DNA of 52,086 bases from Desulfobacteraceae bacterium UBA5623 (GCA_002424495.1 DIKH01000397.1:54222-106307); one strand, 5' to 3'. Positions 8,393-31,550 are shown, counted from the stretch's first letter. The notes: generated from the sequence alone by a model not told the origin. Made by a program: numbers and translations.

Positions 8393-8444
8393 TTTATACG
8401 TTTACAATATTACTCAATAAAACTCATGGAAAGGAGAATGGAAA

Positions 8445-9560: not shown

Positions 9561-10487
9561 ATGCAAACAATTGATCCTGAAAATCGTCTTAAACAGCAAT
9601 ATCATCCTTGCACATGGATGCAGGCAGGCGTTGTGGATCACAAGTTGTGCAGGGAGAACTACAACTGCCCCCGGTGCCATTATGACAGGGTGATGAACAA
9701 CCTGGCCGAAGAGAACAGGGCGCTCAAACAGTCCGGCATTATCCCCCTTGGAAAAAGGGGGAGGATTGTCTCCTGGAAGGATAAGCTCCTGGCCTGGTCC
9801 TTATCCAAAAGGCCGTGCATCCACCACATGAAGGGCCGGATCGGGTTTCGGATGTGCAACCAGGAATATCGTTGCGGCAGCTGTGATTTTGATCAGTTTT
9901 TTGATGATCAGTATTCCGTGCACGCCGTGGTCAGACCGGTTGATGTCCTGGATGTCAAGGGTTTTAAAATCCCTCAAGGGTATTATTTCCACCAGGGCCA
10001 TACCTGGATGAAAATAGAGGAAAACGCCTCTGTCAGGGTGGGGATAGATGATTTTGCCCTGCGTCTGCTGGGACCGCTTGACCGGGTTGAGGCCCCGCTT
10101 GTCGGAAGGCAGACCAAGCAGGGCAGGGGAGATATCTCAATTGCACGGGGCCAGAACCTTGCAAGAGTGCTTTCTCCCATAAGCGGAGTTGTAACCTCCA
10201 TCAACTCGATATTGAGAGAAGAAGGCGGCCTTACCAATAGACATCCCTACTCCGAGGGATGGGTGATGATGGTCAAGCCGGACAGCCTGCGCACGGACAT
10301 GAAAAATCTTATGATACATAATGAAACCAGCGACTTCATGGAAGCACAGGTTGATCGACTCTGTCAGGAGATAGAAGATGTGGCAGGTCCAATGGCGACT
10401 GACGGAGGGTTTTTCGGAGATGATATATTCGGGAATTTGCCTCAACTGAACTGGAGGAAACTGGCTAAGGTGTTTCTCAAGAACTGA
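9561..10487 (+). CDS. Cys-rich GcvH-fold protein, paralogue 2
   Basis: Same architecture as 8445..9428 (GHTWMKIE...VRVGIDDFA...LSPISGVVTSIN...HPYSEGWVMMV, two C-X12-C-X5-C-X2-C motifs). Its last ~137 nt are duplicated at 31414..31550. Confidence 0.65.
   Translation: MQTIDPENRLKQQYHPCTWMQAGVVDHKLCRENYNCPRCHYDRVMNNLAEENRALKQSGIIPLGKRGRIVSWKDKLLAWSLSKRPCIHHMKGRIGFRMCNQEYRCGSCDFDQFFDDQYSVHAVVRPVDVLDVKGFKIPQGYYFHQGHTWMKIEENASVRVGIDDFALRLLGPLDRVEAPLVGRQTKQGRGDISIARGQNLARVLSPISGVVTSINSILREEGGLTNRHPYSEGWVMMVKPDSLRTDMKNLMIHNETSDFMEAQVDRLCQEIEDVAGPMATDGGFFGDDIFGNLPQLNWRKLAKVFLKN
10383..10463. repeat. Left copy of 81-bp perfect direct repeat (island junction, attL-like)
   Basis: Identical by eye to 31446..31526 (offset 21063). 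Flanking homology with mismatches spans 10351..10487 versus 31414..31550. Confidence 0.85.
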
Positions 10488-10562
10488 CTGTAATCTGGGC
10501 AAGGACTTGCCAACATAGAGATCTTATAGCCTTATTAATCTCGTCCATAAAGAGTGTCTTAG

Positions 10563-10600
10563 CAGGCTGCCGGATGATCATCCGTCAGCCTGTTTTTTTT
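10563..10600 (+). terminator. Rho-independent terminator
   Basis: The arm caggctg-c-cggatga pairs with tcatccg-t-cagcctg (14 bp with one mismatch) and is followed by T8. It lies 76 nt after the stop of the GcvH-like gene. Confidence 0.8.
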
Positions 10601-10712
10601 GTCTTCTGAAAGGGTTTATCATGTCAGGATGCTATCTGTAGAAATCGGACTTGAAAAAAACAGGATGAGGATGAATGAACTTTCACTTTATCAGCGCACC
10701 GGGTTCTTGAAC

Positions 10713-12758
10713 CTAATCCATTATGGCTTTTGTAAAGGCATCTATTGCATCTGCGTAAAACTCGATGCTGACCTTAGTTGCCATTTCGTCGGATAGCTCG
10801 AATAATTGCCTGCGAGATGAAATAGGCATCAACAATGTCGTTGCTCCCTTCTCAACGGCCAGTTCTGCAACAGCGACCGGATTTGGCACCATTTCAACGG
10901 AACCGCCAAGGTTTAATGCCCCAACAATGATGAGACCACCTTTTACGCTCCGTTCAATCAAGCCTCCGCAGAGTGATAATAGGACGGCAAGGCCAAGCCC
11001 CTGTCCCGAGCTGTCAATGTCCATAGATCGTAATTGTATCGAGAACTCATGGTTACGGGGATCACGATCTCCTACAAGCTCCTTAGCCCGCACATACAGA
11101 TTTTGTTCTCCGTAACGAACGCTTTCTCTGAAGGCAGGGGGTACAGGTGTATTGAGTATCTTTACCCCACTTCCGGGACCAACCGTTACCTCAATTCGAT
11201 ATAGCGCAGAGGAAGCTTCCTGGCCGCCCGGACTAATGGCCCAGACCTGGCCTGGAGGAAGTGGATCGGCATCAATCAATTCATCGCTGTGAAGCTCCGG
11301 GGTCGAGACAAACTGTTCTACACCATCTACACCCATGAAATAGCTGAAATGGGTATTTCTGAATTCCGTTTTCAGACATCGTTTCTGCTGTTCTTTAACA
11401 CGGCGGCGTGCTTCCAAAGCGATGCGAACAATTGATTCCAACTCCTCATCAGGAATGGGCGTATCAGGGGAAGGAAAAATGAGTTTTATCAAACCACTGA
11501 TTGTCTTGTTTACAGCCTCGATATCTCGGCCACTGAGGGCTCCTCCCCAATTTATGCGCCCCTGTAATACTGGCAGCCGGCTTCCAGAACGAAGTTTGTT
11601 CCAACATTCGGACAAAAAATCGCTGACAAGACCAAAATGATTGGACAGATTGTCAGGATTCAATTTGGGGAAATCCCAACCCGGAGCATAGGCGTGAATA
11701 CGATCCATAAATGCGGTATCGTTCCTCATTTCGACAGGCAGTGGACTGAGTAAGTGCCCGATTCGCTGTTGTTGTTCAACGTCAACTTCAAAATTCCCTA
11801 CCATTACGATGCCGCCAAAAGCTCTAATTGGCTCTTTGCCTCTGGAAAATTCTCCAGAGGCCATATAGCCTTTCATAATATTAACGCCATCCTTCTGGTC
11901 AAAAGATACCCCTGAAATCTCGTCAAAACACACCACATCATAATGGCAAACAAGGCCACGTTGACCATTCGCCATATTGACAAACATTTTTGCCACAGTG
12001 GCTTTACCGCCTGATACTAAATGAGAATAAGGGGAAATTTGCTGATATATATGACTCTTTCCCGTCCCTCTTGGGCCAAGCTCTACCATGTTATAATTGT
12101 TTTCAATAAATGGAATCATGCGGAGTAACGCTACCATCTGGGCACGGTCGGAGAGCGTTTCCGGTTCTAGTCCAACACATCGAATCAGAAACCTCTTCCA
12201 TTCTTCAGTGGTGAATTGGCTCCGGCCTCGATCCAAAACGGAAAGCACATCTGACTTTGAAAGTTGGATTGCCCTCAAGCCTTCTACTGCAAAAGGTCTA
12301 CCGCTTTTTTCTTGAGCTATTGCCGCGTCGTAAGTCAAATTTAGCTCAGCATAAAAACCATCGGTGAGCATCCGCTCATTGTCGTGCACAAGCTGATCGC
12401 TGATACGCACGTCACGCAAACCCAGGCTTGGAAGCTCGGCAATAAAACAATCATTCTTAGAGTCGAGTTTGGCTTTTATGATATCAATTAACTTAACTGA
12501 TCCTTTTTCCCGTGCCCAGGCTTTAAATAATTCCTCTTCCCCGGTTCGGACAGTCCGATCTTTCAGTTGTCTTTCAACAATTCCAAGGCCTTCCTCGATT
12601 TCTTTTTCATCAACAGTCGCGCAATAACGCCCAAGTAAAAATTCAACCACATATGTGGGTACAGGATACTGTCGGCTGTATTTTCGGACCAGGTCCTTGC
12701 GCACCAGGAATCCGTCAAATGCTGAGGCGGCAAGTCGGTCGAGGTTGTCAAGTTCCAT
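10713..12758 (-). CDS. brxL: BREX Lon-like protease BrxL
   Basis: 681 aa. The N-terminal reads FDGFLVRKDLVRKYSRQYPVPTYVVEFLLGRYCA. Walker A is GPRGTGKSH, with a C-terminal Lon-protease-like region. It is the last gene after pglZ, as in type 1 BREX. Confidence 0.85.
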   Translation of the reverse strand: MELDNLDRLAASAFDGFLVRKDLVRKYSRQYPVPTYVVEFLLGRYCATVDEKEIEEGLGIVERQLKDRTVRTGEEELFKAWAREKGSVKLIDIIKAKLDSKNDCFIAELPSLGLRDVRISDQLVHDNERMLTDGFYAELNLTYDAAIAQEKSGRPFAVEGLRAIQLSKSDVLSVLDRGRSQFTTEEWKRFLIRCVGLEPETLSDRAQMVALLRMIPFIENNYNMVELGPRGTGKSHIYQQISPYSHLVSGGKATVAKMFVNMANGQRGLVCHYDVVCFDEISGVSFDQKDGVNIMKGYMASGEFSRGKEPIRAFGGIVMVGNFEVDVEQQQRIGHLLSPLPVEMRNDTAFMDRIHAYAPGWDFPKLNPDNLSNHFGLVSDFLSECWNKLRSGSRLPVLQGRINWGGALSGRDIEAVNKTISGLIKLIFPSPDTPIPDEELESIVRIALEARRRVKEQQKRCLKTEFRNTHFSYFMGVDGVEQFVSTPELHSDELIDADPLPPGQVWAISPGGQEASSALYRIEVTVGPGSGVKILNTPVPPAFRESVRYGEQNLYVRAKELVGDRDPRNHEFSIQLRSMDIDSSGQGLGLAVLLSLCGGLIERSVKGGLIIVGALNLGGSVEMVPNPVAVAELAVEKGATTLLMPISSRRQLFELSDEMATKVSIEFYADAIDAFTKAIMD

Positions 12759-12760
12759 GT

Positions 12761-15106
12761 CTATTCATCACCTCCAATTGTGGTAGTCTGCTTCCCTACT
12801 ACTGAACCGGAAGAATCAATTAGTACCAGGCTGACAACGGTGCCTTCCAGTTCCTCATTTTCAACAAGCAGGCTCACCTGGCCGTCAGCACTGATCATTT
12901 TAGGGACGGCTACACTTGAAGTTTCATCATTGGGTTTTGTTCTAAGATCTGCTTTAATTTTGGCTCCCCCCGAATCAATGGTGGCTCTGCAGCGCATACC
13001 ATGCCACTGTATGTCTTTTATTTTTGCGATGGTCTGAACAGCCACATCACTCAAGCTGAATTGCAGGTCCGGGATGAGGCATTCCTGTAAACTCACACCA
13101 CCATGGGCGTATTCATTTCCATTTGAAAAGCAATTTATCCCCGGACCATAGGCAAAATATTCATGGGAATTCCAATACCAACTGGCCATCGGAAAATCGA
13201 CTTTTGAATGATCTTTAGTAACCGCGCACCTTGCCCATCGGCATTCGGTGAGGTATTTCGGCAACTTCACAGCAGGCAGACCGCCTGGAACAAGGAGCCA
13301 GCCATGATCCGTTATCACTCTTACCCGTTTCCATCCGGCATCAAGCAACTCCCGGATTCTTTCAATCAAAAGTTCTATCTGCTCCGTGATTCTGGCCGCC
13401 AGCTTGCCTTGTAATGTATGACCGAGCTTGTCAATCTCACCGAATTCCGTCCACGCGCGGGCATCCGCTTTTTCTGGCTCACCAGCATCAGATAGGCTGA
13501 GAACCTGGTATCCTTCCGAGGTGAGCAGTTTACGGAAACGGTCAATGGTTAACGGTTTGCCGTCTTCTTTTGTTTCAGGCCGAAACTCATCTCCTAATTG
13601 ATTCCCTTTGATTTTCCCGGCTACCGGTGAAAGGGCGGGTTTAGATGTCGCGGTTACTGTCGGCAGGGAAGCCCAGCGCCAACTGGCCGAGGCCTTAAGC
13701 CGTCTTTCCTCTGCCAAAATGCCTAACCGCTTTGAAACATCAAATCGAAGACTGTCGGCAAATAACAGGCATTCTCCAACCTCAGCCTCTGCTCCATGCA
13801 GATCGCAGCAAGCTGAGGGCAAGGGCGTTTCAGTTAACAATTTCTGGAAATTACGGGCCGTATCATCCAGCCAGGGCAAATAGGTGCTCCTTAAAGCCGC
13901 TTCTATGGCGTTATAATCTTCACTGGATTTGACACTTCCAAGGGCAGAAATAGCCGCCATATCTGCTTCATAGCCACCTTCCCTATAAACAGCGGCCATT
14001 GCATCAAGCGAATCACCACCGATGTTTTGGGTAGTTGCATCAGCCACCACAGCCAAATGTTCTAACGATGTTGCAACAGGACTTTGCCCGATTTTCGCCC
14101 ATACCCAATCACGGCGTTGATGATGTTTTTTCTCTAATTCTTTAATTGTCTTCCTGGCTTCTGCAGCGCTCTTTGAAGATAAACTCAACAGCTCCTGTCG
14201 TAATGATTTTTCTTCGCTGTCGTTTTCATCGGGCCATGGTGCTTTGTCAAAAATGAGTTTTCCTGAAGGCTTCGACTTTCTGAGCACCTCCGGCATACCT
14301 GGGTACAGCAGCGGCGATTCTTCAAAACGCCTCCAGAGATTCTTCCAGGCTTCATTTTCCCGCATCCCGAGGTTTTCCCCGGCGACAATTGCACCATCTT
14401 TTTCCGGATCAAAACAATATTCCGCCTTACAACGCGAAACAAATGCCGACCATTTATTTTCATTCCATTGTTCCTGAATTTCTGATGGCGAATTCATCCA
14501 TACCAGTAAGTCACGCGGCGTATCTTCAATCATCAGCTTATCGAAATCTTCTGCCTCAAGACGTTTAGCGGTCAGCCGTGTGATTGGTGTTACTGCAAGT
14601 TGGGCTAATGCACCGAGCATTGATTGTTTGGTGTGTCTATCCTTGGCAACATCCAGTCCCAGACCCCCTTCCTTTGAGACTAGAAACGCCTCCACCGTCC
14701 AGTCCCTTCCGTTCCGTTGCGTCCAAACCGTGCCCCGATATTGCAGCTCAACTAGCGGTTTTAGGGTGTCAGGGCATTCCTCGACGGCTCTCAACGTTTG
14801 CCTGCTGACATTCGGCATGTATATGACAGGCGTGACATCTTCCGGCAGAGAGTGCTCGATAACACATCTAAGCCAGATGGCTGGCCCGATCCTTTTCCCG
14901 GGGTCATATTCACCCAGCGTAAACAGTTCGGGCATCAAAGGCCTCAGTTGATCCACCAGGGCAGCCCATTGGCTGTCTGAATCGGTCCACAAAATGACCG
15001 CCGGCCCGACCATGTCGGATCGGTTGTACCGACCGGCCTGAAGGAGCGAAAGTCTTACTGATTCGAGAAGCGTTGAATAAATCTTATGTTCGGAATACTT
15101 CGTCAT
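12761..15106 (-). CDS. pglZ: BREX alkaline-phosphatase-superfamily protein PglZ
   Basis: 781 aa. It has a PglZ-type core (LLFADSLRFDV...VITDHGWLLVPGG) and sits between pglX and brxL. Confidence 0.85.
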   Translation of the reverse strand: MTKYSEHKIYSTLLESVRLSLLQAGRYNRSDMVGPAVILWTDSDSQWAALVDQLRPLMPELFTLGEYDPGKRIGPAIWLRCVIEHSLPEDVTPVIYMPNVSRQTLRAVEECPDTLKPLVELQYRGTVWTQRNGRDWTVEAFLVSKEGGLGLDVAKDRHTKQSMLGALAQLAVTPITRLTAKRLEAEDFDKLMIEDTPRDLLVWMNSPSEIQEQWNENKWSAFVSRCKAEYCFDPEKDGAIVAGENLGMRENEAWKNLWRRFEESPLLYPGMPEVLRKSKPSGKLIFDKAPWPDENDSEEKSLRQELLSLSSKSAAEARKTIKELEKKHHQRRDWVWAKIGQSPVATSLEHLAVVADATTQNIGGDSLDAMAAVYREGGYEADMAAISALGSVKSSEDYNAIEAALRSTYLPWLDDTARNFQKLLTETPLPSACCDLHGAEAEVGECLLFADSLRFDVSKRLGILAEERRLKASASWRWASLPTVTATSKPALSPVAGKIKGNQLGDEFRPETKEDGKPLTIDRFRKLLTSEGYQVLSLSDAGEPEKADARAWTEFGEIDKLGHTLQGKLAARITEQIELLIERIRELLDAGWKRVRVITDHGWLLVPGGLPAVKLPKYLTECRWARCAVTKDHSKVDFPMASWYWNSHEYFAYGPGINCFSNGNEYAHGGVSLQECLIPDLQFSLSDVAVQTIAKIKDIQWHGMRCRATIDSGGAKIKADLRTKPNDETSSVAVPKMISADGQVSLLVENEELEGTVVSLVLIDSSGSVVGKQTTTIGGDE

Positions 15107-16278
15107 TATTCAGCTTTCCTTGCCATCCGTGCCATAAACAGGTTACGTTCGTAATCCGTTTCCAATTTAAAGTCCGGCACCAAAGCCAAGGCACGAAGGA
15201 TACCGGTGCCGATTCCTCGATATGGCAATTCCTTGGTTGCGAACGAGGCGATAAGGGGATTGCGGATGACCGACACGCCATTGCTGATGTTCTCAATAGT
15301 CAGATTATTCGGCAACGCACCAGGGCTGATCAATTCGATGCGATTGTCAAAAATCATAATGCGCCAAGGCGCTGAAATGAAATAGTCCCGGTGCAGAAGC
15401 ATGTTGACTACGAGTTCCTCGATTGCAACGGCAGGGATTTCCAGATCACCTTCAGTATTAAAATCCTTGTCGCTTTGTAATCTGCGAAGATTCCGGGTGA
15501 TAAATGACATGGTGCGGGTATGCAAGTCGCGCAGACAGCCACCAATGTCCTCACTGTCCCTATATTTCACGCCCGCTGGGTCATTACCCACGAAAGAGAC
15601 GGCCTTGACGACAAAGGCAGGACGATAACGTTGTGGATCCCGTCCGAACAGAAGCAAACCCGCGAGGTTGAGGGTCTCGTCTTTGGCAAGACCCAAATTG
15701 TTCAAAAGCCGGGCCATCGTCAGGCCGGAGTCTTCCAGCGCCTGTTTCACGGATCGACCGTGTTGTTTTTGAAAGAAGCCGTTGAAATGGCCATCGTCCA
15801 ACGAGTCCAGGGTTGTCCCTTCAACAGGGACTTCATCGGCATGAACAAGACCTGCGCGTTGCATCATCCGCTGAATCTCCTCACGGGAGGTGACCGGTCG
15901 CTTGTTGGCCGCCGATTTGACCCAAAAAACCCCTTCATTATCCATGTAGGGTTTTGAGATGCCTTCGGGAATGTTGATGACCATGACCAATTTTTCGTCA
16001 ATGATAACATTATCGATTTTCGGGTTGATCGACGGTCGAATGAAATCGGTCGCTGCATCGGAGATGATCTGATTGATTCGGCGGATATCATCGGGTGCTA
16101 CACCGATGACAGATCCAGAATCGTCCACACCGATGAGCAGTCTTCCCCCTTTGCTGTTTGCAAAAGCCACCATTTCCCCAACAAGAGATTTGGCATTGGT
16201 GACTTCCTGGTTCCGCTTGAACTGTGTGCAGGAATCTTCTCCGCGCCCTATCAATTCAATTAGTTCAATTGAGTTCAT
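15106..16278 (-). CDS. AlbA_2 (Schlafen-like) / HATPase_c_4 domain protein, short form (usually auto-annotated as RecG-like helicase or transcriptional regulator)
   Basis: The N-terminal reads EDSCTQFKRN...VAFANSKGGRLLIGVDDSGSVIGV (AlbA_2 signature). The later motif ELVVNMLLHRDY...IELISPGALP is HATPase_c_4-like. I prefer ATG 16278, which has GGTGGAG upstream; the ORF track start is 16311. Its stop overlaps the pglZ start by 1 nt (TAATG). Confidence 0.7.
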   Translation of the reverse strand: MNSIELIELIGRGEDSCTQFKRNQEVTNAKSLVGEMVAFANSKGGRLLIGVDDSGSVIGVAPDDIRRINQIISDAATDFIRPSINPKIDNVIIDEKLVMVINIPEGISKPYMDNEGVFWVKSAANKRPVTSREEIQRMMQRAGLVHADEVPVEGTTLDSLDDGHFNGFFQKQHGRSVKQALEDSGLTMARLLNNLGLAKDETLNLAGLLLFGRDPQRYRPAFVVKAVSFVGNDPAGVKYRDSEDIGGCLRDLHTRTMSFITRNLRRLQSDKDFNTEGDLEIPAVAIEELVVNMLLHRDYFISAPWRIMIFDNRIELISPGALPNNLTIENISNGVSVIRNPLIASFATKELPYRGIGTGILRALALVPDFKLETDYERNLFMARMARKAE

Positions 16279-16420
16279 GATTAAAACTCCACCTTTCTCC
16301 ATTGCCATCAACCCATTCCCCGTCTTTCCCTTTCTCCAATTCGCCCTTGCCTTCGTCCGTTTATCATGGCAAAAATATCTTTAATTTATCTTTTTATTTT
16401 AAATGGTTAAATGATTTTCG

Positions 16421-16465
16421 GTCTAAAAGTCCTGCTAAAGTCCGTCTAGTTTCCGTCTAAGATCC
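16421..16465. repeat. Four tandem ~11-bp direct repeats (GTCTAnnnTCC)
   Basis: The units are gtctaaaagtcc, tgctaaagtcc, gtctagtttcc and gtctaagatcc, placed head to tail. They straddle the stop codon of the 559-aa gene and lie upstream of the 390-aa gene. Confidence 0.7.
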
Positions 16466-18125
16466 ATTTAGCATGCCGGCCTGGGCCTCCCTGTGTTCTG
16501 ATACTCCTATCATTCTTGGACATTTCCTGGAGCAAGTTACGGATTTTGTTCTTTTTCTGTTCATGGCTCAGGATGTCCGGCAGTTTTTCATAGAGAAGAT
16601 TGTCAATTTCACTCCGGCTTGCGGAGCCAAATTTTTTAATAAAAGCAAGTATCATTTGCTTATAATGCCCTTTGTCAAATGCACGATACCGGATATAGTC
16701 AACCTTTCCCTGAGTTGCCTCGGCAATACGGCCAGCCACAAAAAGATTCGGTCGACGACCTTCAATAAGTCTAATTCTTTTTAATCGATTGAATTCTTCA
16801 TCTGAGAGCTGATATTTTTTTTGGACCTTATCGAGGGCGATAACATCGAACAAACTAAGATTGGTATTTTTCATCAGAAGCTTTGTATAATTTTCGTTCA
16901 ATATTTTTCCAAGCAGCCGGACTTTAACCCGCTGGGGATCAGAAAGATCATAGTCTGGCATGGGGAAAAATCTGCCACGCTGCAAGTTGAAAATCCTTTT
17001 GATGCCGCTGCCGATGGTATCAATCATCTGCAAATTGACCATAGCATCGGTTAAAAACTGGTTTCTGTAATATTCAGGTGGTGCATCAAGACGGATGACA
17101 TTTTCAACACTCTCAGGAAGAAACGAACCTCCATTGACGAAAAACAGAGAATCTTCCTCCTCTACAACATTAATTCTCCCCCTGAGAGCATAATCCTGAT
17201 GTGCAATACAATTATGAAGAAGCTCACGGATAACCCATGAATCATACTGGGTAATCTCTACTGGAAAAAGGGAATGGTCTCGCATGTAACGGTACGTGAG
17301 ATTGCGAATTCTATTGAACAGGTGGTTGGAATTGAGAAGAAATGGCGGTCCAAAATGTTGATAATCTTTTTCCATGCCGCTTTGGTCCCTCAGAATCCAG
17401 CTTATTCTGGCTATTGCCGGTTCAAGGTGGTATTCAGATTCCTCCCGCCCTAATAGAATAATAGCTGTAGTGGTTATTTTACCGTTTTTCAGGACCTTGG
17501 CTTTGTTGAGAAAGGTTTCATCTCTCCATTCTTCCACTTCGGAGGCCAGGTTGGGATACTTGGACCTGAAAAATTCCCTGGCACGGGCGATGGCAGCAGG
17601 GTCAAGATCTGTAAGGCTGGCATTCGGACATATTTCCCCTGACCAATCCGGTTGAGTAACTAGCAGGATAAGCTCATGTTCATGGGGATTGAGCGGGCCA
17701 ATGGATTCTCCGTCCCGGCCATAATGATGTCCTTTCCAGGCTGTGGGCACACCCGGCCGGGCTGGGGGAATTTCAAACATTACCACGCGCCCCTCTGGCA
17801 GATGCAGTTCGTGGATTTCTGCAAATGTCAGCCGGTTGGATGTTTGATCCGCAATTTCCTTTTTCAGGTTATCCAGGTCCGCTCGATCTAGGCGGAAATC
17901 CGACCCCACGATCTTTCGCGGGTGGTTCTGAATACCAAAGATAAGCCATCCTGCTTCTTGTCTTTTCAAACGTGCTTCATTGCTGAGCGCCGAAAAATAC
18001 TGCCCCAGTTTATCGAAATGAAACGATCGGGATGCTTGCTTGAATTCAACCCATTCGATTTCAGCCGGCAAGGCCATTAGTTCGCTTAGTTTTCGGTGTA
18101 GCGCCTGAGAGTCATAAGCCTTCAA
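16446..18125 (-). CDS. AlbA_2 (Schlafen-like) / HATPase_c_4 domain protein, long form with C-terminal winged-helix-like tail
   Basis: 559 aa. It has EIEWVEFKQ near the N-terminus, then IRELLHNCIAHQDY...FFVNGGSF, then a basic helical C-terminal region. Its ATG overlaps the pglX stop by 4 nt (ATGA). Confidence 0.7.
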   Translation of the reverse strand: MKAYDSQALHRKLSELMALPAEIEWVEFKQASRSFHFDKLGQYFSALSNEARLKRQEAGWLIFGIQNHPRKIVGSDFRLDRADLDNLKKEIADQTSNRLTFAEIHELHLPEGRVVMFEIPPARPGVPTAWKGHHYGRDGESIGPLNPHEHELILLVTQPDWSGEICPNASLTDLDPAAIARAREFFRSKYPNLASEVEEWRDETFLNKAKVLKNGKITTTAIILLGREESEYHLEPAIARISWILRDQSGMEKDYQHFGPPFLLNSNHLFNRIRNLTYRYMRDHSLFPVEITQYDSWVIRELLHNCIAHQDYALRGRINVVEEEDSLFFVNGGSFLPESVENVIRLDAPPEYYRNQFLTDAMVNLQMIDTIGSGIKRIFNLQRGRFFPMPDYDLSDPQRVKVRLLGKILNENYTKLLMKNTNLSLFDVIALDKVQKKYQLSDEEFNRLKRIRLIEGRRPNLFVAGRIAEATQGKVDYIRYRAFDKGHYKQMILAFIKKFGSASRSEIDNLLYEKLPDILSHEQKKNKIRNLLQEMSKNDRSIRTQGGPGRHAKWILDGN

Positions 18126-21514: not shown

Positions 21515-21554
21515 TTATGTTCCCAGATGTTCGGATTGCTTGAATTCCGAAAGA

Positions 21555-24374: not shown

Positions 24375-24380
24375 CTCACC

Positions 24381-26351
24381 TTATCCTTTTTCGGATGTTT
24401 CAATTTTCAATGCTTTCTCCAAAGCTGTCTTAATTTGGGATTTTCTTGAGGTTAACCTTTTGATGACATCATAAAACCGGGATTTTATCCCTGGTTTTTC
24501 CTTAAATAATCCTGCCATATCATACGCAATTGCTGGCGGAATTGATTCGATTGGGGCCTTTGAAAGTGCATTCACGTAGGATTCAATACTACCGGAAACA
24601 TCTTTGTGAATAATCTTTGCAAACGCATCATATCCGGCCTTTTCATCCGGGTGACGTTTAATATGGGTCTCCAATAAGTCGAGAAATGACACTCTCTCGT
24701 CTTCTTTAAAGGACTGTACCGCTTCGACTGCTTTATTTGCTACCACAGTATTATCAGAGAGAATTTCGGATAATGCCAAACGAACGATCGGGGAAATAAG
24801 AGCTGTACCTGAAAGCGTTGACTCCAATCGATCTCTTGCTATCCAGAAATAGTCCCGCAGATCAACGTCTGATAATCGAGGCTCCATTGCCAGCCAACGT
24901 TTAACAGATTTTGTATCCCATCTCGGCTCTGAAATTTTCACGTTTTCTAATTTTTCAACATCGTCGTCAGCTTCAAGAACAAGGTTTTCCCATTTTTCTA
25001 TCTGTTTTGGGAAGCCGTCCTGGCTTTGCTGCCAATCGAAAAGGGCTTTGAATTCCTTTATATGAGCGTATTCTAAGATCATGAGTTTGACCAGGACATC
25101 ATCCCTGATATTGCTTAAATTCGCGACCCTTGCGAGTTCCTTTCTTAATACAAATGCATTGAGGAATCTTTTGATCTGGCGCGGGTTCCCTTTCAGTCCT
25201 TCCGTAATGAGTGGAGAGGCTTGAGATGAAAAAGTCAGGCTCCTGGATAAATCTTCGGGCAATTTACCAATCGCCTTCTCCACATCAGCATACCCAAAGA
25301 CAGAATATCGGTTTTCTTCTCGTGCCTCCTTGCAACAGGTTACACACTGATCGAAACGACCAGAATCAAGCATTCTTTGACAAAAAAGGAGCGTCATATA
25401 AGTTTCAACTTCAGCAGGTGATAGGCGCGGAAGACGGTATGGAACTTGGATAAGCTTTTCAAGGTAATCAGTAATTAAACTGTCAGCGGTTTCGCTATCT
25501 TCTTGACCTCGCATCTGATCTGGAGTGTAGGTGACAGCGATTGCGTGCCTTACAATCCTGGGATCTGCGCCGATCACAAAAGCCGTTTTATCCACGTTCA
25601 AGAAAAGCTTGATTGCTTCAAGATTCTCAATGATTCTTTCAGGTGAGCATCTATCAAGATCATCGACCAATATAACAAGGCCCTGAATATCACTATCCTT
25701 AAGCATCTGAGAAAACCGATCGCGAAAAGATCGAACATCCAACGGACTTGCTGGTGTTTTGTCCGATTTAATCAGTCCTTCCCAGTTGACCTTATCAGTA
25801 CCAGAGGCTTTCTCACCCTTTGGAGCCTCAGGACTTTCCTCTTGCCCTTCATCACCGCAAATTCCTACAAGGCCCATGGCAGATCTCATTAGGGAAGGAA
25901 CAATCGTTGCACCACCTGAGATATAAGCGGCAATAGCGGGGAGGGCCACTTCTTTAAACCCGAGCCTCGCGGCACGCATCCAATTGACAGACTTCATTAA
26001 AGACACGACCTTGTCTCTGACTTTGGGGCCGAATCGCTGATGTTCACCCAACTGAAGCAGGACAGAGCTGATAATTGCAGATTTCGCATCATCATATCCT
26101 TCGAAAAGCCATCCGTTGAAATAAAGGCAGGCAATCTTTTCATATTTAGCCCTCTCTGCAGGATCAGTGTAACTATTCGGATCTAAATCCGATTCAAGCA
26201 TCTTCATGATGCTTGTTTTCCCACCGCCCCAATCCCCAAAAACTCCAATCGTGATCGGCAATAAATCAGGGTTTGTGACAACTGAGCGAATCAAGTCTGC
26301 ATGCACCCTGAAACCAAGAAGATCGAGGGTTGTCTCATTATCTGACCACAT
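24381..26351 (-). CDS. qatA: KAP-family P-loop NTPase, QatA
   Basis: 656 aa with N-terminal Walker A GDWGGGKTS and Walker B-like LVILVDDLDRC. It is the first gene of a 4-gene cassette. Confidence 0.75.
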   Translation of the reverse strand: MWSDNETTLDLLGFRVHADLIRSVVTNPDLLPITIGVFGDWGGGKTSIMKMLESDLDPNSYTDPAERAKYEKIACLYFNGWLFEGYDDAKSAIISSVLLQLGEHQRFGPKVRDKVVSLMKSVNWMRAARLGFKEVALPAIAAYISGGATIVPSLMRSAMGLVGICGDEGQEESPEAPKGEKASGTDKVNWEGLIKSDKTPASPLDVRSFRDRFSQMLKDSDIQGLVILVDDLDRCSPERIIENLEAIKLFLNVDKTAFVIGADPRIVRHAIAVTYTPDQMRGQEDSETADSLITDYLEKLIQVPYRLPRLSPAEVETYMTLLFCQRMLDSGRFDQCVTCCKEAREENRYSVFGYADVEKAIGKLPEDLSRSLTFSSQASPLITEGLKGNPRQIKRFLNAFVLRKELARVANLSNIRDDVLVKLMILEYAHIKEFKALFDWQQSQDGFPKQIEKWENLVLEADDDVEKLENVKISEPRWDTKSVKRWLAMEPRLSDVDLRDYFWIARDRLESTLSGTALISPIVRLALSEILSDNTVVANKAVEAVQSFKEDERVSFLDLLETHIKRHPDEKAGYDAFAKIIHKDVSGSIESYVNALSKAPIESIPPAIAYDMAGLFKEKPGIKSRFYDVIKRLTSRKSQIKTALEKALKIETSEKG

Positions 26352-26414
26352 TATTAAGATCCTCTTAATTGCTTACAATAATTATAGGTTTCCTATAAGC
26401 ATATATTTTCGTCT

Positions 26415-29400
26415 TTATGAAATCACGATTGGACCATCTTCCAGCCTTTCCAGCAATTCCTGTTCAATCCTTTCAATCCAGCTTGTGACGTCCTCTTTTG
26501 TTTTCAAAGTCCCACTGGTCAACCGGACAGTCTGCGTCTTGGGTTCAAGCAGCTTTGCGGCTGCTAAAGCCGCGTTGCTGAATTGTGTCGGCAATGCGTC
26601 AATCTTGGTTTTCCAATTCGTTAAAGGTGTTTCCTCCAGGGTGCGAAGGAGGCTTGAATCATCGCCTATCGATAGGAATGGTATGACAGCGATACCTTCT
26701 GCATCGAGAATATCCTGTTGCTGATCAGAAGTGATTTTTACCCAATTATCGTTTGATTCAAGCGCCGCCACTTCATCATCATAAACGGACTTGAAATCAT
26801 CATAGGCCTTCTTTACAGCCGATCTTAACGCAGTCACAGCTTCCTTGTGAATCGCAGGAACAGGGTCAGTTTTATCAAGAAGGCGTTTTTCATCACGGAC
26901 TGCATTTGCCTGCTGATTAAGATTTTCTGATTCAGGCAGGGTTTTGCTGTGTTTCAATAGACGCTGAAGTGTTTCCCATGCCGGTTTGCGTTTGGCGGCC
27001 AATTCGGCCAAATCAGCCCATTCCTGGGCCTGTTTTGAGAGCGTGTCATGCTGGTTCAAAATCTCGGCGAGTTGTTCGTTTCCGGCTAGTGCTCTCAAAT
27101 TTTCAAGATGGTTGGTTGAGGGACGTTCCGGCATCGGTGGTGCGCCCCCAGCCCGATCTGCAAGGTCTGCTAGGTGAGCGAGAAACTGACCTGCGGCGAT
27201 TGATTCTTCATTGGGTTTACATGGGATTCCTGCACCTTGGAAGAGTTTACGTAATTTGATGCGGCCTCTTGCATCGATGGTTATTGTTTCCACCCGGAAA
27301 TCACTGACTGAGATCTTGGCCTGGTCAAGTTGACCCTGTTTGAGTTGAACGCCTTTGTGAGTGGCCCGAATGTGGCCAGTCGTGAACAGCGTAATCAAAG
27401 CGGCGTCAATTGCATCACGGGGCCAGCCATAAGGGGTGCTCTCAAAGGCATCCCGAACATCTTTGCCTTTCTTCCCGGAACCGATCTCTGAAAGCACGGA
27501 TGAACATACGGCGTGTTTCTCAGGTGCATCATTCCAGTCAATTGCTTGGAGGGCGGCCTCATCTCCATTTTTGGCTCGATTGATAACATTGTGCCAACGG
27601 TCATCATCTGCATCCTGGAAATTCGGAAAAAGCCGGTCCAAGGATATTTCAGCGGCTGAATTCACTTTGTCTTTCAGGGTTAGATCAAAGCGCTCCTGGC
27701 CGCCTCCTTGGATGACTTTGGCAGCGTTGATCACATCCTGAATAATTCTGTTTCTTGTGGTTTCCGCTGAGCCCATACGGGTTGACATGGAATCGCGGGC
27801 TTCCTGGCCTTCCGGTGCCGTGGGTGTTCCTTTGAATTCGATTGTTGTCTTAGCCGCTTCATATTCAACGATTGCCTTTTTGAGGTCGTCGGCACTGGCT
27901 TTGGGAACATATACATAGATGACCGGGCTATCCGTTCCGGCGGCCCGGGCGTCCGCCAGCACAGTGCTTTCATTTTCGCCCCAACCATCGCGTATCCAGA
28001 CAGGAATTTCATTCCCTTTGACTTCAGGCGGTTCAGTGCCAAAATGAATTGAAAGCCTGCGAGCCGCTTTACACTTGCCTTGAAGTAGCTTGATTCCATT
28101 TAAGGAAGTGGAACATGCAGCATTTAACAGAGAAGAACGCTTGCTGGATAGCGCGGTCAGGTCGTTATTCAATTTTGTCTGACGGTTACGGAATTCACGG
28201 TCCCACTCGCTGCTTTCTCTGGTCTGAAGACTGTATTCTTCATCAATCTTGATAAGTTTCCCCTCGTCAACAAGTTTATCGAGAATTTGAGGGATCTCTT
28301 TCCTCAAAACCGCGCCATCATTTGCAAGATCGCTGATAAGAAGATCCGCCAGGGTTTCAGCGGTGGCCCGAACCCCGATATCGGCTACTTCTTCACGTGG
28401 AAGTTTTCGAATCAGGAAAACAAGTCCACAAATCCGTTTGGCAAGTTTGCCGCCCTGAGTGCCATCGTCAAAGTTTCGAATCGTTTCATCGATCTCCCGC
28501 AATAGAACACCGGTTCGCAGGAGATCAGGCTGAAGCTGACCAAAGATGAAGTCAGCCGGCATAACCGTACCGAGGGTTTTTTCGGCCATTTCCTTAACCG
28601 CATCATAAACAATCCGCAACTGGGTCCGGACCTGGCTGGCTGTACCGGGAAGGTCGATAGCACGCAAGACGTGTTCCCAAAAGCGGCGGCGAACGGGTAA
28701 GAGAGGATAGTCATCCACAATTATTGCGCGGTCTTCGCTCCGAGGGCCAATCCGTGTTCCTGAAAGCTGACGGTCTATTTCCCCGGCATAAGAACCGAGC
28801 TTATCTTCAATGGATTTGCGCTTATCGGCTTTTTTAGCAAGGACCACGCGACGGGTTACCGTTTCCACATCCGAATCTGATAGCTCAACAGGAATCGTAA
28901 AACGGTCTCTAAGGCGCTGCAATAAGGGCACGCTACCGGCCAGGGCTGTTTGCCCTGCCCCTATGAGTAAGACCCGGCTATCGAGCTGTTTGCAGATGGC
29001 TTCGGCGATTTCCATAACATCAGTGGACCGTTTCGCACTGTCCCCGATGAACAACTGGATTTCATCCAGCACAATAGTCGTGCATGGGATTTCACCATTT
29101 GTGGAAAGGACTTTGCGGACAATTCGGATGAACTCTTCCGTTGAAATATCTTCCACGACAGGGAACTGGGCACGAAACGCTGCTCGGGCTTGTTTCAGGT
29201 CCGGGGCAAATGCGGGATCAGCCTCCAATATTGCTTTGGCCAGAATGGGACTGACATAAAGATCATGCAGCTCGCTTTGAAAGTCTTTTCCGGCGGATTC
29301 CACCGAGGATTTGACGTTTTCATATATGTTGTTTTTCTGAAGCCAGAGACAGAACTGTGCCTGGGGGAGGGAGCTTGGCAGACCTTTGGAGCGTAAAATG

Positions 29401-29861
29401 ATACTCAACACGGCAAGGCGAACGCTTTCACCGCCTCCGGAAGGCAAGGTCCCTGACGCCGCATGGAGTCCCCCGCATCGTTTACCCAATGTATCCAGTT
29501 CCTTTAAAAGATCACTTACCTCATCCGGCAACTGAGTAAGCCCCCTGGCGGTAGCCCCATCAGATTCAAACTGGGTATCCACCCACAAATGCCTGAACAT
29601 TTTTAGAAGGTGGGATTTGCCGCTTCCAAAAAAACCGCTTACCCATGCGGCAGGCTGAACCGTTGAATCGGCATTCCCCAAATAGGATTCAAGGATTCGG
29701 GTCAGGCCACCCTTATACTGGCCTTCGCAGACAAAGTGCTCCAGCTCATAACGCAGGGTTTCAATCTCTTTCTGGGTTGTCGATTCCGTTACTGCGGCCA
29801 CACCATCGTTAAGCAGCTTTGTGACAGCAGGGTCTCGCTGAAATATCTCACGGTTTTTCAT
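26415..29861 (-). CDS. brxC: BREX large ATPase BrxC/PglY
   Basis: 1148 aa with Walker A GFFGSGKSH and Walker B-like IVLDEIQ. It follows brxB with a 1-nt overlap. Confidence 0.9.
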   Translation of the reverse strand: MKNREIFQRDPAVTKLLNDGVAAVTESTTQKEIETLRYELEHFVCEGQYKGGLTRILESYLGNADSTVQPAAWVSGFFGSGKSHLLKMFRHLWVDTQFESDGATARGLTQLPDEVSDLLKELDTLGKRCGGLHAASGTLPSGGGESVRLAVLSIILRSKGLPSSLPQAQFCLWLQKNNIYENVKSSVESAGKDFQSELHDLYVSPILAKAILEADPAFAPDLKQARAAFRAQFPVVEDISTEEFIRIVRKVLSTNGEIPCTTIVLDEIQLFIGDSAKRSTDVMEIAEAICKQLDSRVLLIGAGQTALAGSVPLLQRLRDRFTIPVELSDSDVETVTRRVVLAKKADKRKSIEDKLGSYAGEIDRQLSGTRIGPRSEDRAIIVDDYPLLPVRRRFWEHVLRAIDLPGTASQVRTQLRIVYDAVKEMAEKTLGTVMPADFIFGQLQPDLLRTGVLLREIDETIRNFDDGTQGGKLAKRICGLVFLIRKLPREEVADIGVRATAETLADLLISDLANDGAVLRKEIPQILDKLVDEGKLIKIDEEYSLQTRESSEWDREFRNRQTKLNNDLTALSSKRSSLLNAACSTSLNGIKLLQGKCKAARRLSIHFGTEPPEVKGNEIPVWIRDGWGENESTVLADARAAGTDSPVIYVYVPKASADDLKKAIVEYEAAKTTIEFKGTPTAPEGQEARDSMSTRMGSAETTRNRIIQDVINAAKVIQGGGQERFDLTLKDKVNSAAEISLDRLFPNFQDADDDRWHNVINRAKNGDEAALQAIDWNDAPEKHAVCSSVLSEIGSGKKGKDVRDAFESTPYGWPRDAIDAALITLFTTGHIRATHKGVQLKQGQLDQAKISVSDFRVETITIDARGRIKLRKLFQGAGIPCKPNEESIAAGQFLAHLADLADRAGGAPPMPERPSTNHLENLRALAGNEQLAEILNQHDTLSKQAQEWADLAELAAKRKPAWETLQRLLKHSKTLPESENLNQQANAVRDEKRLLDKTDPVPAIHKEAVTALRSAVKKAYDDFKSVYDDEVAALESNDNWVKITSDQQQDILDAEGIAVIPFLSIGDDSSLLRTLEETPLTNWKTKIDALPTQFSNAALAAAKLLEPKTQTVRLTSGTLKTKEDVTSWIERIEQELLERLEDGPIVIS

Positions 29862-30421
29862 CAGTCGCTTACCCCGTTATGTAAGGTTATGGGAACGGCC
29901 AAATAATTCCAGCCATCCCGCGCATCGAGGAGCCGATAATTGTTATTGTCAAACTCACCTGGAAAAAAGAGCAACAAACGGCCCCGAATGTCATGGATGA
30001 CTTCCTTCAAAATTAAAGATACCTTGGTGAAACCATATAAACTTGCCACTCCATACACGGCCACCACGCTTTTTGCATCGACATCTGAGTCTGTTAATAC
30101 CTTTCTAAGTTCATGCGATGCAAACTGCAAAAATCCGCTTTGAAGTTTCATTGTCAGATCTTCCGGAGATTCAAAATACAGGTCTCTATATTCTGTGTTG
30201 GCCATCCAGGTGGCGAAGGTCTTTGTAAAATTAAAAGGCTTCCATTTATGCTTGGCATCGATTGTTGCCATTTCAAAAAGCTCAAGCCGGGCACGCAGCT
30301 TACGTTCGTCCTCTTTGGGGTAGACCACAAAGATGGCTTTTTGGTCTCCAGCAAGGTTGCGTTGCCACGGTGCAGAGATATGATTACGATAGCGAGTTGC
30401 CAGATCTTCAATCCGTCCCAT
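29861..30421 (-). CDS. brxB: BREX protein BrxB (DUF1788)
   Basis: 186 aa with C-terminal LLLFFPGEFDNNNYRLLDARDGWNYLAVPI, typical of DUF1788. It overlaps brxA by 14 nt. Confidence 0.85.
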   Translation of the reverse strand: MGRIEDLATRYRNHISAPWQRNLAGDQKAIFVVYPKEDERKLRARLELFEMATIDAKHKWKPFNFTKTFATWMANTEYRDLYFESPEDLTMKLQSGFLQFASHELRKVLTDSDVDAKSVVAVYGVASLYGFTKVSLILKEVIHDIRGRLLLFFPGEFDNNNYRLLDARDGWNYLAVPITLHNGVSD

Positions 30422-31238
30422 GTATTAAATGCCTTTCATCTTCGGTAAACAGGCGGGTAAATGAAACCTCCACAACCCCGCCTGCCTGACTCAAGTCCAA
30501 AAATCCTAATCGTTTGGCATCAGTCGCCAGAGAGACCAGTTCCTCCTGGGGTGTATCGAGCACTTTTGCCCAAAGTGTATTGAATAAACCGTTGCCACGA
30601 GCCCCAAGAACATAACCCAAGACAAGGGCGTAGGCTGTGACAATAGGGGTAGGCGTTACTTTCTGACGAATTTTTCGAACACGTCCTTTTAAATGCCCAG
30701 ATTGGGTCCATGAAGATGATGTATTACGCACGACCTTATCTAGAATATTGTCATTTAACCTGTCTTCAAGGCCTTCTATTAGTATCTGGGCCATTTTTTG
30801 ACGTACCAGTTCTTCACCAGTTTTCATTTGAAGCACAGGAGATGTAGTAACCCTAAGAAGAGGGTCCCGAGCTAAAGCAGTTAAGAGAGCAAGAAGCGGG
30901 CGACCATTCTCATCAAACTGCCAAAGTTGGCGCATAACACGAAAAAGAGGGATAGACGGATCAAGTCCATAAAGCTCGCTCAGGCGTTGGCATGTAAGTT
31001 TGCGTGTTGAAACGGTCTGCTTACCTAGACAATTATGATCAACGATGGCTGATACATAGGCTTCACGTGGAGCACCTTGCTCCTGGTCTTCAAACAATAA
31101 AACCAGTTCTTTTAACATGATAGTTCTGCTGGTGTGTGTGCCTTTATCTCCGATTCGAAATCCCGCCTTAATCCAAGGCTGAAAAACTCCTGAATCCTGC
31201 AAAAGAACATTTTCTTTGAGTATTGGATCTTTCTTCAT
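30408..31238 (-). CDS. brxA: BREX protein BrxA (DUF1819)
   Basis: 276 aa and the first gene of the operon directly upstream of brxB. The assignment rests on position and size; no diagnostic motif was checked. Confidence 0.7.
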   Translation of the reverse strand: MKKDPILKENVLLQDSGVFQPWIKAGFRIGDKGTHTSRTIMLKELVLLFEDQEQGAPREAYVSAIVDHNCLGKQTVSTRKLTCQRLSELYGLDPSIPLFRVMRQLWQFDENGRPLLALLTALARDPLLRVTTSPVLQMKTGEELVRQKMAQILIEGLEDRLNDNILDKVVRNTSSSWTQSGHLKGRVRKIRQKVTPTPIVTAYALVLGYVLGARGNGLFNTLWAKVLDTPQEELVSLATDAKRLGFLDLSQAGGVVEVSFTRLFTEDERHLIHGTD

Positions 31239-31251
31239 TGCAACCTTCTAG

Positions 31252-31277
31252 TTTTGCCGGCAAGATTGCCGGCAAAA
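31252..31277. promoter_or_regulatory. Tandem palindromes TTGCCGGCAA x2 (operator-like) just upstream of brxA
   Basis: The sequence is ttTTGCCGGCAAgaTTGCCGGCAAaa. Each 10-mer is self-complementary, and the whole 26-mer is nearly symmetric. It lies 14-39 nt upstream of the brxA ATG (31238). Confidence 0.5.
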
Positions 31278-31400
31278 TTTCGTTTTAAAATAAAACTGAA
31301 TATAAGATTTGTCAAGATGCTAAGCAAAATTTCTCAGTTTTATAATTTTCAGCCTCTGGAGGCGATTGATTGAGGATTTCAAGTTGTTTTTCTTTTCATT

Positions 31401-31550
31401 ATGAAGATTGGCGTTGATCTCCTCAGTCAGGAGATCGAAGAGGTTGCAGGTCCAATGGCGACTGACGGAGGGTTTTTCGGAGATGATATATTCGGGAATT
31501 TGCCTCAACTGAACTGGAGGAAACTGACGAAGGTGTTTCTTAGGACCTAA
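31401..31550 (+). pseudogene. Orphan 3' fragment of a GcvH-like gene (displaced duplicate, attR-like side)
   Basis: The 49-codon frame MKIGVDLLSQEIEEVAGPMATDGGFFGDDIFGNLPQLNWRKLTKVFLRT* matches the C-terminus of 9561..10487. It contains the right copy of the 81-bp repeat. Confidence 0.8.
31446..31526. repeat. Right copy of 81-bp perfect direct repeat (island junction)
   Basis: Identical to 10383..10463. Confidence 0.85.

What the first reader, a model, noticed from the sequence alone, without database searches (positions are those of the whole stretch)
10351..31550. Defence island inserted at the 3' end of a protein-coding redox gene, bracketed by an 81-bp perfect direct repeat, with no recombinase
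**Seen in sequence**
- 10383-10463 and 31446-31526 are identical (81/81 by eye). Homology with scattered mismatches extends over 10351-10487 versus 31414-31550.
- The left copy is the functional 3' end of the 308-aa GcvH-like gene (...NWRKLAKVFLKN*).
- The right copy is an orphan fragment (...NWRKLTKVFLRT*).
- All 12 genes in between are defence genes on the opposite strand to both flanking host operons.

**Established knowledge**
- Integrative islands that target a gene's 3' end regenerate it and leave a displaced duplicate at the far junction.

**Inference**
- The repeats are attL/attR-like scars.
- The orphan copy ends in FLRT like the upstream paralogue (8445..9428). It may therefore be the original host terminus, with the KN* terminus brought in by the element.

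**What is unusual**
- The target is not a tRNA/tmRNA.
- I can find no integrase, transposase or excisionase anywhere in the window. The 81-bp repeat may itself mediate RecA-dependent gain or loss of the whole BREX/Qat island.
Basis: partly seen in the sequence, partly recalled or inferred. Interest (0 to 1): 0.75.

Follow-up and report, generated by a model that had tools for sequence, protein, structure and literature searches.

The report
Integrase-less BREX/Qat island with att-like repeats
A 21-kb block of anti-phage genes (BREX with a nested Qat system) was inserted into the end of a GcvH-like gene of a Desulfobacterium-like bacterium by one crossover that duplicated the last 136 bases of the gene; the island carries no recombinase, a situation already known for other genomic islands.

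Summary
Positions 10350-10485 and 31413-31548 form a 136-nt direct repeat with 11 mismatches and an exact 81-nt core (10383-10463 = 31446-31526). Between the copies lie 12 minus-strand genes. Six are a complete type 1 BREX system. QatABCD is nested between brxC and pglX. Two AlbA_2/Schlafen genes sit between pglX and pglZ.

The closest relatives (about 95% nt identity) have an empty site: gcvH1, gcvH2, about 300 bp, then hdrA, with one copy of the 136 nt.

The mismatches are chimeric. The left copy is host-like at its 5' end and foreign at its 3' end. The right copy is the reverse. This is the signature of a single reciprocal (Campbell-type) crossover inside the core. The island supplied a new gene end (...LAKVFLKN*) and a terminator. 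The host's own end (...LTKVFLRT*) was displaced 21 kb.

No integrase, transposase, tRNA or terminal inverted repeat occurs in the island or the window. What catalysed the crossover is unresolved. It could be homology-driven recombination or a recombinase acting in trans or since lost.

Integrase-less, repeat-flanked islands (CIMEs, the E. coli H47 island) and protein-gene 3'-end targets are known. I therefore rate this a well-documented new member of a known kind, of moderate interest.

The parts
9561..10487 (+). gcvH2: a 308-aa protein with a Cys-rich N-terminus and a GcvH domain. It is the host target gene. Its last approximately 8 codons, including the stop, are island-derived.
   Evidence: Pfam GCV_H, E = 2e-20. 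It scores below the NCBIfam cut-offs for true GcvH. It is 94% identical to P0001 from an empty-site relative.
10350..10485 (+). Left repeat copy (attL-like). 10350-10382 is host-type, 10383-10463 is the exact core, and 10464-10485 is island-type.
   Evidence: There is 1 difference from L088 in the 5' 33 nt and 5 differences in the 3' 22 nt.
10486..10712 (.). Left-end spacer of the island. No homologue was found in any fetched locus.
   Evidence: Homology to the empty site ends at the stop codon. Homology to other BREX loci ends at the brxL stop codon. blastn of the spacer found nothing.
10561..10601 (+). Intrinsic terminator (a roughly 14-pair hairpin followed by T8) supplied by the island behind the regenerated gcvH2.
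   Evidence: Fold energy -24.5 kcal/mol, z = -4.6; 0 of 200 shuffles fold as well.
10713..12758 (-). brxL
   Evidence: PADLOC BrxL E = 2e-290; Pfam BrxL_N and BrxL_ATPase.
12761..15106 (-). pglZ
   Evidence: PADLOC PglZ E = 2e-302.
15106..16311 (-). AlbA_2/Schlafen + HATPase_c_4 protein (putative accessory or regulator).
   Evidence: Pfam. Weak PADLOC hits to pAgo-associated models. A remnant sits at the same position in BREX locus L093.
16446..18125 (-). Second AlbA_2/Schlafen + HATPase_c_4 protein.
   Evidence: Pfam. 89% nt identity to the gene at the same position in L093.
18122..21514 (-). pglX (BREX methyltransferase)
   Evidence: PADLOC PglX E = 0; Pfam Eco57I and MmeI_Mtase.
21555..26351 (-). 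qatD (21555-22295), qatC (22292-23662), qatB (23643-24374) and qatA (24381-26351): a complete Qat system nested between brxC and pglX.
   Evidence: PADLOC QatA 1e-106, QatB 8e-12, QatC 2e-96, QatD 3e-57. The cassette is absent from related BREX loci, where brxC abuts pglX. GC is 0.423 against 0.48-0.49 for the BREX genes.
26415..31238 (-). brxC (26415-29861), brxB (29861-30421) and brxA (30408-31238).
   Evidence: PADLOC BrxC E = 0, BrxB 1e-79, BrxA 3e-104.
31239..31412 (-). Right-end spacer of the island, upstream of brxA. It holds a promoter-like site (31315-31287) and two copies of the palindrome TTGCCGGCAA (31254-31263 and 31266-31275).
31413..31548 (+). Right repeat copy (attR-like), the orphan 3' end of gcvH2. 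31413-31445 is island-type, 31446-31526 is the exact core, and 31527-31548 is host-type.
   Evidence: There are 5 differences from L088 in the 5' 33 nt and 0 in the 3' 22 nt. Homology to the empty site then continues at 97.8% through 31848.
31549..34872 (+). Host right flank: the hdrA leader, then hdrA (31849-34872) with an in-frame TGA at 32029.
   Evidence: Collinear with L088, L089 and L001. Translation.

Best explanation
A non-autonomous 20.9-kb defence island (type 1 BREX with nested QatABCD and two AlbA_2 genes) entered the chromosome as a circular molecule. That molecule carried a 136-nt copy of the last 45 codons of gcvH2, taken from a related lineage.

One reciprocal crossover inside the 81-nt identical block placed the island between two chimeric copies (shown):
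- attL = host 5' part + island 3' part. It regenerates an intact 308-aa gcvH2 with a slightly altered C-terminus and an island-supplied terminator.
- attR = island 5' part + host 3' part. It is the displaced original gene end, in front of hdrA.

The island encodes no recombinase (shown).

I infer that the crossover was homology-driven (RecA-type) rather than made by a dedicated integrase. On that view the 81-nt identity can still support rare deletion of the whole island.

The confidence given (0.5) is for the full statement, including the homology-driven catalyst. The single-crossover insertion alone I put at about 0.85.
For: Empty site:
- L088 and L089 (about 95% nt identity) show gcvH1-gcvH2-hdrA with one copy of the 136 nt. 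The window's 21,063 extra bases are exactly the island plus one repeat copy.
- Two further contigs from JGI 3300075153 show the same gene order.

Chimeric pattern:
- 5' 33 nt: left copy 1 difference from L088, right copy 5.
- 3' 22 nt: left copy 5 differences, right copy 0.
- No difference between the copies over the central 81 nt. P is about 5e-5 for a random scatter.

Origin of the arm:
- The island-type arm (VDLL..EIEE..LAK) shares these residues with GcvH2 of the related Desulfobacterium sp. TRIP AH-1.
- Island GC (0.466) equals that of the flanks.
- Both points fit a donor within the same group of bacteria.

Against a cis-encoded mobility function:
- No integrase, transposase or excisionase domain in any ORF of the island or window.
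- No tRNA.
- No terminal inverted repeats.

Pointing to homology rather than a fixed core:
- Homology extends on both sides of the crossover.
- The crossover lies in the longest identical block.
- The six core positions where both copies differ from L088/L089 are in the ancestral state in the outgroup L001. The corresponding residues differ from the window's in the five closest homologues. This fits a conversion tract of at least 48 nt.
Against: - The architecture is also the classic design of integrase-borne elements: it targets a conserved gene's 3' end, rebuilds the reading frame exactly to the stop codon and brings a terminator.
- A recombinase could act in trans from outside the 52-kb window, or could have been deleted.
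- The one experimentally studied precedent (the H47 island) recombines between imperfect repeats independently of recA (PMC3191183).
- The six shared core differences are within the local range of divergence between the window and L088 (0-12 per 100 nt). They may simply be host-lineage changes, which removes the conversion argument.
- How a circle with a single homology arm first arose is not explained.
- No donor, circular form or same-strain empty site was found.
Confidence: 0.5

Rival explanations
1. Site-specific integration. The 136-nt repeats are true attL and attR of an integrative element. Its integrase either acts in trans from elsewhere in the genome or was lost after integration. 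This would be a cis-mobilizable element or an H47-type 'parasitic' island.
For: - Gene-end targeting, with exact restoration of the ORF and a supplied terminator, is typical of integrase-borne islands.
- CIMEs are defined as islands that lost their integration and transfer genes but keep attL and attR (PMC6323972).
- The H47 island has extensive imperfect repeats and no recombinase genes, and it recombines in a recA-deficient host (PMC3191183).
Against: - No integrase remnant exists. The 227-bp and 174-bp end spacers have no ORF above 65 aa and no similarity to anything fetched.
- No third att copy or adjacent helper element lies in the window.
- The closest BREX relatives show no integrase in the flanks seen.
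- An 81-nt identity with homology on both sides is far more than a core site needs.
Confidence: 0.35
2. Linear-DNA acquisition. The island arrived by transformation or transduction and was fixed either by a double crossover in flanking genes or by one homologous plus one illegitimate join. The orphan would then be a leftover of the recipient's gene.
For: - Defence islands without mobility genes are thought to move this way at conserved hotspots (PMC10121019; PMC12829572 abstract).
- The flanks are ordinary host DNA.
Against: - A double crossover does not create a duplication.
- With one illegitimate join, the orphan would be purely host sequence. Yet its first 33 nt carry 5 differences from the empty-site relatives, while the matching part of the intact gene carries 1.
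- The reciprocal chimerism of both copies needs a single crossover with a circle. A linear transfer of an already repeat-flanked locus is possible but only moves the question to the donor.
Confidence: 0.08
3. The island is ancestral and was precisely deleted in the relatives, or the repeat is part of a segmental duplication unrelated to the island edges, or it is an assembly artefact.
For: - Recombination between the repeats would leave exactly the host-type single copy seen in L088 and L089. The direction of the event therefore cannot be read from those two alone.
- One Logan contig ends inside the right core, as expected at any repeat.
Against: - The repeat ends coincide with the island edges to the base.
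- All five close relatives and the outgroup TRIP AH-1 lack the island.
- None of 94 related loci has an orphan copy.
- The foreign segments in both copies require an insertion at some point.
- Three independent assemblies agree.
Confidence: 0.04

Closest known systems
Cis-mobilizable elements (CIMEs; for example the CIMEs at the Streptococcus thermophilus fda 3' end)
   Same: The island is flanked by attL/attR-type direct repeats. It has no integrase and no transfer genes. It sits at the 3' end of a protein-coding gene. The definition is in PMC6323972; the fda example is from my own knowledge.
   Different: No cognate ICE or integrase is known for this att sequence. The repeats are long (136 nt) diverged gene fragments with homology on both sides of the crossover. 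The cargo is purely defence genes. The host is a Desulfobacterium-like sulfate reducer.
H47 genomic island of E. coli (microcin H47 system)
   Same: It is a small island flanked by extensive, imperfect direct repeats that contain blocks of identity. It has no recombinase genes of its own. Hybrid att sites are formed by crossover within the identity blocks (PMC3191183).
   Different: For H47, excision and integration were shown experimentally and were recA-independent. Nothing is shown here. The H47 cargo is a microcin system, and its repeats are not the end of a host gene that gets regenerated.
Genomic islands that target 3' ends of protein genes with their own integrase (SGI1 family at trmE)
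   Same: Insertion is at the 3' end of a conserved protein gene, and the island restores the gene end (PMC8409611 abstract).
   Different: Those islands encode int/xis and mobilisation functions. This one does not.
Type 1 BREX loci with embedded accessory or defence genes
   Same: The brxA-brxB-brxC-pglX-pglZ-brxL order is complete, with extra genes inserted in the brxC-pglX and pglX-pglZ gaps.
   Different: Here the embedded cassette is a complete QatABCD system. The closest BREX relatives lack it.

Membership tests
Type 1 BREX | All six genes present: brxA, brxB, brxC, pglX, pglZ, brxL | tested here: met
   PADLOC hits are full-length for all six, with E from 1e-79 to 0. The order brxA-B-C...pglX...pglZ-brxL lies on one strand.
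Qat (QatABCD) | Four adjacent genes: KAP NTPase QatA, QatB, QueC-like QatC, TatD-like QatD | tested here: met
   PADLOC QatA 1e-106, QatB 8e-12, QatC 2e-96, QatD 3e-57. Pfam KAP_NTPase, QueC and TatD_DNase. NCBIfam QatB scores below its cut-off.
Integrated genomic island (insertion with att-type repeats) | Direct repeats exactly at the island edges | tested here: met
   The edges of the extra 21,063 bases relative to L088 coincide with the repeat.
Integrated genomic island (insertion with att-type repeats) | Empty site with a single repeat copy in close relatives | tested here: met
   L088 and L089 as DNA; two JGI contigs as gene order.
Integrated genomic island (insertion with att-type repeats) | Reciprocal hybrid composition of attL and attR | tested here: met
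   Differences from L088 are 1 vs 5 in the 5' part and 5 vs 0 in the 3' part.
Integrated genomic island (insertion with att-type repeats) | Excised circular form (attP) or same-strain attB | tested here: inconclusive
   The 15-billion-protein collection holds no attP-type 49-aa ORF and no same-strain attB-type GcvH2. There are no DNA hits for the core in the searchable metagenome or viral collections. Raw reads could not be examined.
Self-mobile integrative elements (ICE, IME, prophage, satellite) | Own integrase or recombinase, plus transfer or phage genes | tested here: not met
   There is no such Pfam domain in any island or window ORF. The end spacers contain only short ORFs with no detected function. 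Nothing matches in the phage or plasmid collections.
CIME (cis-mobilizable element) | attL and attR retained; integration and transfer genes absent | tested here: met
   definition from PMC6323972.
CIME (cis-mobilizable element) | att sites recognised by the integrase of a cognate ICE or IME (accretion and cis-mobilisation) | not testable with these tools
   Only 52 kb of the genome is available. No element with the same arm was found elsewhere.
tRNA/tmRNA-targeting island | att overlaps a tRNA or tmRNA gene | tested here: not met
   ARAGORN finds no gene in the window. Rfam gives no match.
Transposon | Transposase, terminal inverted repeats and a short target duplication | tested here: not met
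   There is no transposase. The terminal inverted repeat score equals that of shuffles. The duplication is 136 nt, and it is diverged.

The most novel reading that the evidence does not exclude
The island is a recombinase-free, 'homology-handle' defence cassette. By carrying a copy of the end of a conserved host gene, it can be looped out and re-inserted by the host's general recombination system in any related bacterium that has that gene. It regenerates the gene each time. This would be one concrete route for the movement of defence islands that have no mobility genes.
Probability: 0.25. Interest if true: 0.65.

Novelty: new member of a known kind. Interest (0 to 1): 0.38.

Why it matters
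How defence islands without any mobility gene move between genomes is an acknowledged gap (PMC10121019). This locus is an unusually clean natural example. It has an exact empty site in close relatives, reciprocal chimeric junctions that fix the topology of the event as a single crossover with a circle, and no recombinase in cis. It yields directly testable predictions, namely the attB and attP junction sequences. It also shows a complete Qat system nested inside a BREX operon in an environmental sulfate reducer. It does not reveal a new kind of element.

Tried and rejected
**Searches for a circular form, a same-strain empty site or a donor**
- An exact 26-mer of the core found 0 hits in metagenome contigs and 0 in viral contigs.
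- The island-type 49-aa arm, searched in metagenome contigs, found only relatives of 68% identity or less.
- The clusters around GcvH2 and the orphan ORF contain no attB-type or attP-type sequence.
- Among the 126 retrieved GcvH2 homologues, only the window's own protein has the island-type arm with its LAKVFLKN ending.

**Search for an integrase-bearing version of the island**
- The closest BrxL relatives (94-96% aa, about 80% nt) lie in other contexts. None has gcvH2 or an integrase in the flanks seen. Homology stops at the brxL stop codon.

**Search for a vector**
- The plasmid and phage collections gave no match.

**Test for an integration hotspot at gcvH2**
- None of 80 genome loci has an orphan copy. 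Most carry a two-component system between gcvH2 and hdrA instead.

**Other hypotheses rejected**
- Transposon: no terminal inverted repeats.
- tRNA or ncRNA target: none found.
- Compositional foreignness: island GC equals flank GC, and only Qat is lower.
- Co-transferred flank: divergence from L088 is patchy but shows no step at the junctions.
- Arm-type repeats in the virtual attP: only promoter-region palindromes upstream of brxA.
Full report
**1. The observation**

The repeat finder reports one long direct repeat that brackets the region: 10350-10485 versus 31413-31548, 136 nt at 92% identity. A weaker third member at 9291-9426 is the 3' end of the upstream paralogue.

Base-by-base comparison confirms an exact 81-nt run, 10383-10463 = 31446-31526. 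The 11 mismatches lie only in the outer 33 nt (six) and 22 nt (five). If they were scattered at random, the chance of none in the core is about 5e-5.

The left copy is the in-frame end of a 308-aa ORF, 9561-10487 (...LAKVFLKN*). The right copy is an orphan fragment that ends ...LTKVFLRT*.

Contigs from at least three independent assemblies reproduce the structure at 99.96-100% identity. Two of them span the whole island, so it is not an assembly artefact.

**2. What lies between the copies**

All twelve ORFs are on the minus strand. PADLOC and Pfam identify them as follows.

| Coordinates | Gene(s) |
|---|---|
| 30408-31238 | brxA |
| 29861-30421 | brxB |
| 26415-29861 | brxC |
| 21555-26351 | qatA, qatB, qatC, qatD |
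| 18122-21514 | pglX |
| 15106-18125 | two AlbA_2/Schlafen + HATPase_c_4 proteins |
| 12761-15106 | pglZ |
| 10713-12758 | brxL |

This is a complete type 1 BREX system with a complete Qat system nested in the brxC-pglX gap.

- In the closest BREX relatives (BrxL 94-96% identical), brxC abuts pglX. Qat is therefore a secondary insertion, which fits its lower GC (0.423 against about 0.48-0.49).
- One relative (L093) shares the AlbA_2 genes at the same position.
- No ORF in the island or elsewhere in the window has an integrase, transposase or excisionase domain. The 227-bp and 174-bp end spacers hold only short ORFs with no detected function.
- There is no tRNA or tmRNA gene, no Rfam family and no terminal inverted repeat.

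**3. The empty site**

The host gene belongs to a conserved pair of GcvH-domain genes (gcvH1, gcvH2). The pair occurs in many Desulfobacterales, usually upstream of an hdrA/flpD/metF cluster.

The nearest named genome is Desulfobacterium sp. TRIP AH-1 (82% aa). It has no island.

Protein search found closer relatives at 92-94% aa. Their contigs show gcvH1, gcvH2, then roughly 300-500 bp, then the Sec-interrupted hdrA.

L088 aligns at about 95% to window 7715-10485 and to 31413-32882. Its positions 2524-2659 match both repeat copies. Relative to this empty site, the window contains 21,063 extra bases: exactly the island plus one repeat copy.

**4. Topology of the event**

Taking L088/L089 as the host-type reference gives this pattern.

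| Segment | Left copy vs L088 | Right copy vs L088 |
|---|---|---|
| 5' 33 nt | 1 difference | 5 differences |
| 3' 22 nt | 5 differences, then loses all homology after the stop codon | 0 differences, then continues at 97.8% into the hdrA leader |

Each copy is thus one host part plus one foreign part, in reciprocal arrangement. This is what a single crossover between the chromosome and a circular molecule carrying a homologous 136-nt arm produces. A double crossover, a one-sided illegitimate join or a local duplication would not produce it.

The foreign arm reads VDLLSQEIEE...LAKVFLKN*. It shares VDLL, EIEE and LAK with the TRIP AH-1 protein. No other retrieved homologue has it. It is a real gcvH2 end from a related but unsampled lineage.

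The island also brings a strong terminator directly behind the regenerated gene (10561-10601).

**5. What catalysed the crossover (inferred)**

*For a homology-driven crossover:*
- No recombinase is encoded in cis.
- Homology extends on both sides of the exchange.
- The exchange lies in the longest identical block.
- The six core positions where both copies differ from L088/L089 are in the ancestral state in the outgroup. The corresponding residues differ from the window's in the five closest homologues. That is what a conversion tract would give.

*Against it:*
- Those six differences are within the local range of divergence (0-12 per 100 nt).
- The design is that of integrase-borne islands: gene-end target, exact restoration of the ORF and a supplied terminator.
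- The experimentally studied H47 island has similar long imperfect repeats and no recombinase, and it recombines without recA (PMC3191183).
- A recombinase outside the 52-kb window cannot be excluded.

I put the single-crossover insertion at about 0.85. Within it, I put homology-driven at about 0.5 and a trans-acting or lost site-specific recombinase at about 0.35.

**6. Searches that found nothing**

- No circular junction, same-strain empty site or donor turned up in the protein clusters, the searchable metagenome and viral contigs or the plasmid and phage records.
- None of 94 related loci has an orphan copy, so gcvH2 is not a general hotspot.
- The nearest BREX relatives are about 80% identical at the DNA level and sit elsewhere. 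The island is not a recently spreading element.

**7. Comparison with what is known**

- Islands that keep attL and attR but have no integration or transfer genes are an established category, the CIMEs (PMC6323972).
- The H47 island is a close structural analogue (PMC3191183).
- Integration into the 3' end of protein genes is well known, for example SGI1 at trmE (PMC8409611).
- Defence islands with no identifiable means of mobilisation are a recognised open problem (PMC10121019).

The locus meets the sequence-level criteria of a CIME. Whether a cognate integrase exists could not be tested.

**8. Verdict**

This is a clean, well-resolved new member of a known kind. Its value is as a test case for recombinase-free movement of defence islands. 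Interest is about 0.4.

Noticed in passing
window 31849-34872 (TGA at 32029-32031) and 35680-38709 (in-frame TGA after ...NDCTM, near 35866): Both hdrA paralogues carry an in-frame TGA at the position ...TFPTNDC[ST]M*[IV]ISPK. These are most likely selenocysteine codons. Gene callers split the gene at the same point in all relatives (N-terminal fragments of 50-69 aa).
   Followed up: partly
window 21555-26351: A complete QatABCD system is nested between brxC and pglX of the BREX operon. Its GC is lower (0.423). It is absent from the closest BREX relatives, where brxC abuts pglX, so it is a secondary insertion into the BREX locus.
   Followed up: partly
window 15106-18125; L093 5353-7581: Two AlbA_2/Schlafen + HATPase_c_4 genes sit between pglX and pglZ. 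The same pair (one member truncated) occupies the same gap in an unrelated-context BREX locus, at 82-89% nt identity. This suggests a recurrent BREX accessory or regulator module. No NCBIfam model matches.
   Followed up: partly
window 31254-31275: Two copies of the palindrome TTGCCGGCAA, 12 nt apart, lie between a promoter-like site (31315-31287, minus strand) and the brxA start. This may be an operator or a 5'-leader hairpin for the BREX operon.
   Followed up: no
L001 10925-15718 and most of L002-L040, downstream of gcvH2: In more distant relatives, a histidine kinase plus sigma-54 response regulator pair lies between gcvH2 and hdrA, in either orientation. It is absent at that position in the window and its closest relatives. 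The window has paralogous two-component genes at 41375-46218 and 49074-51987.
   Followed up: partly
L001 15948-20354 and many other loci (e.g. L007, L010, L014): In many relatives the hdrA match is split, with about 1.4 kb between the N-terminal ~155-175 residues and the rest. The cause was not examined; it could be an inserted domain or a separate gene.
   Followed up: no
window 9437-9545 versus L088 about 1715-1735: The gcvH1-gcvH2 intergenic spacer is about 110 nt longer in the window than in the empty-site relative L088. L089 has the longer form.
   Followed up: no
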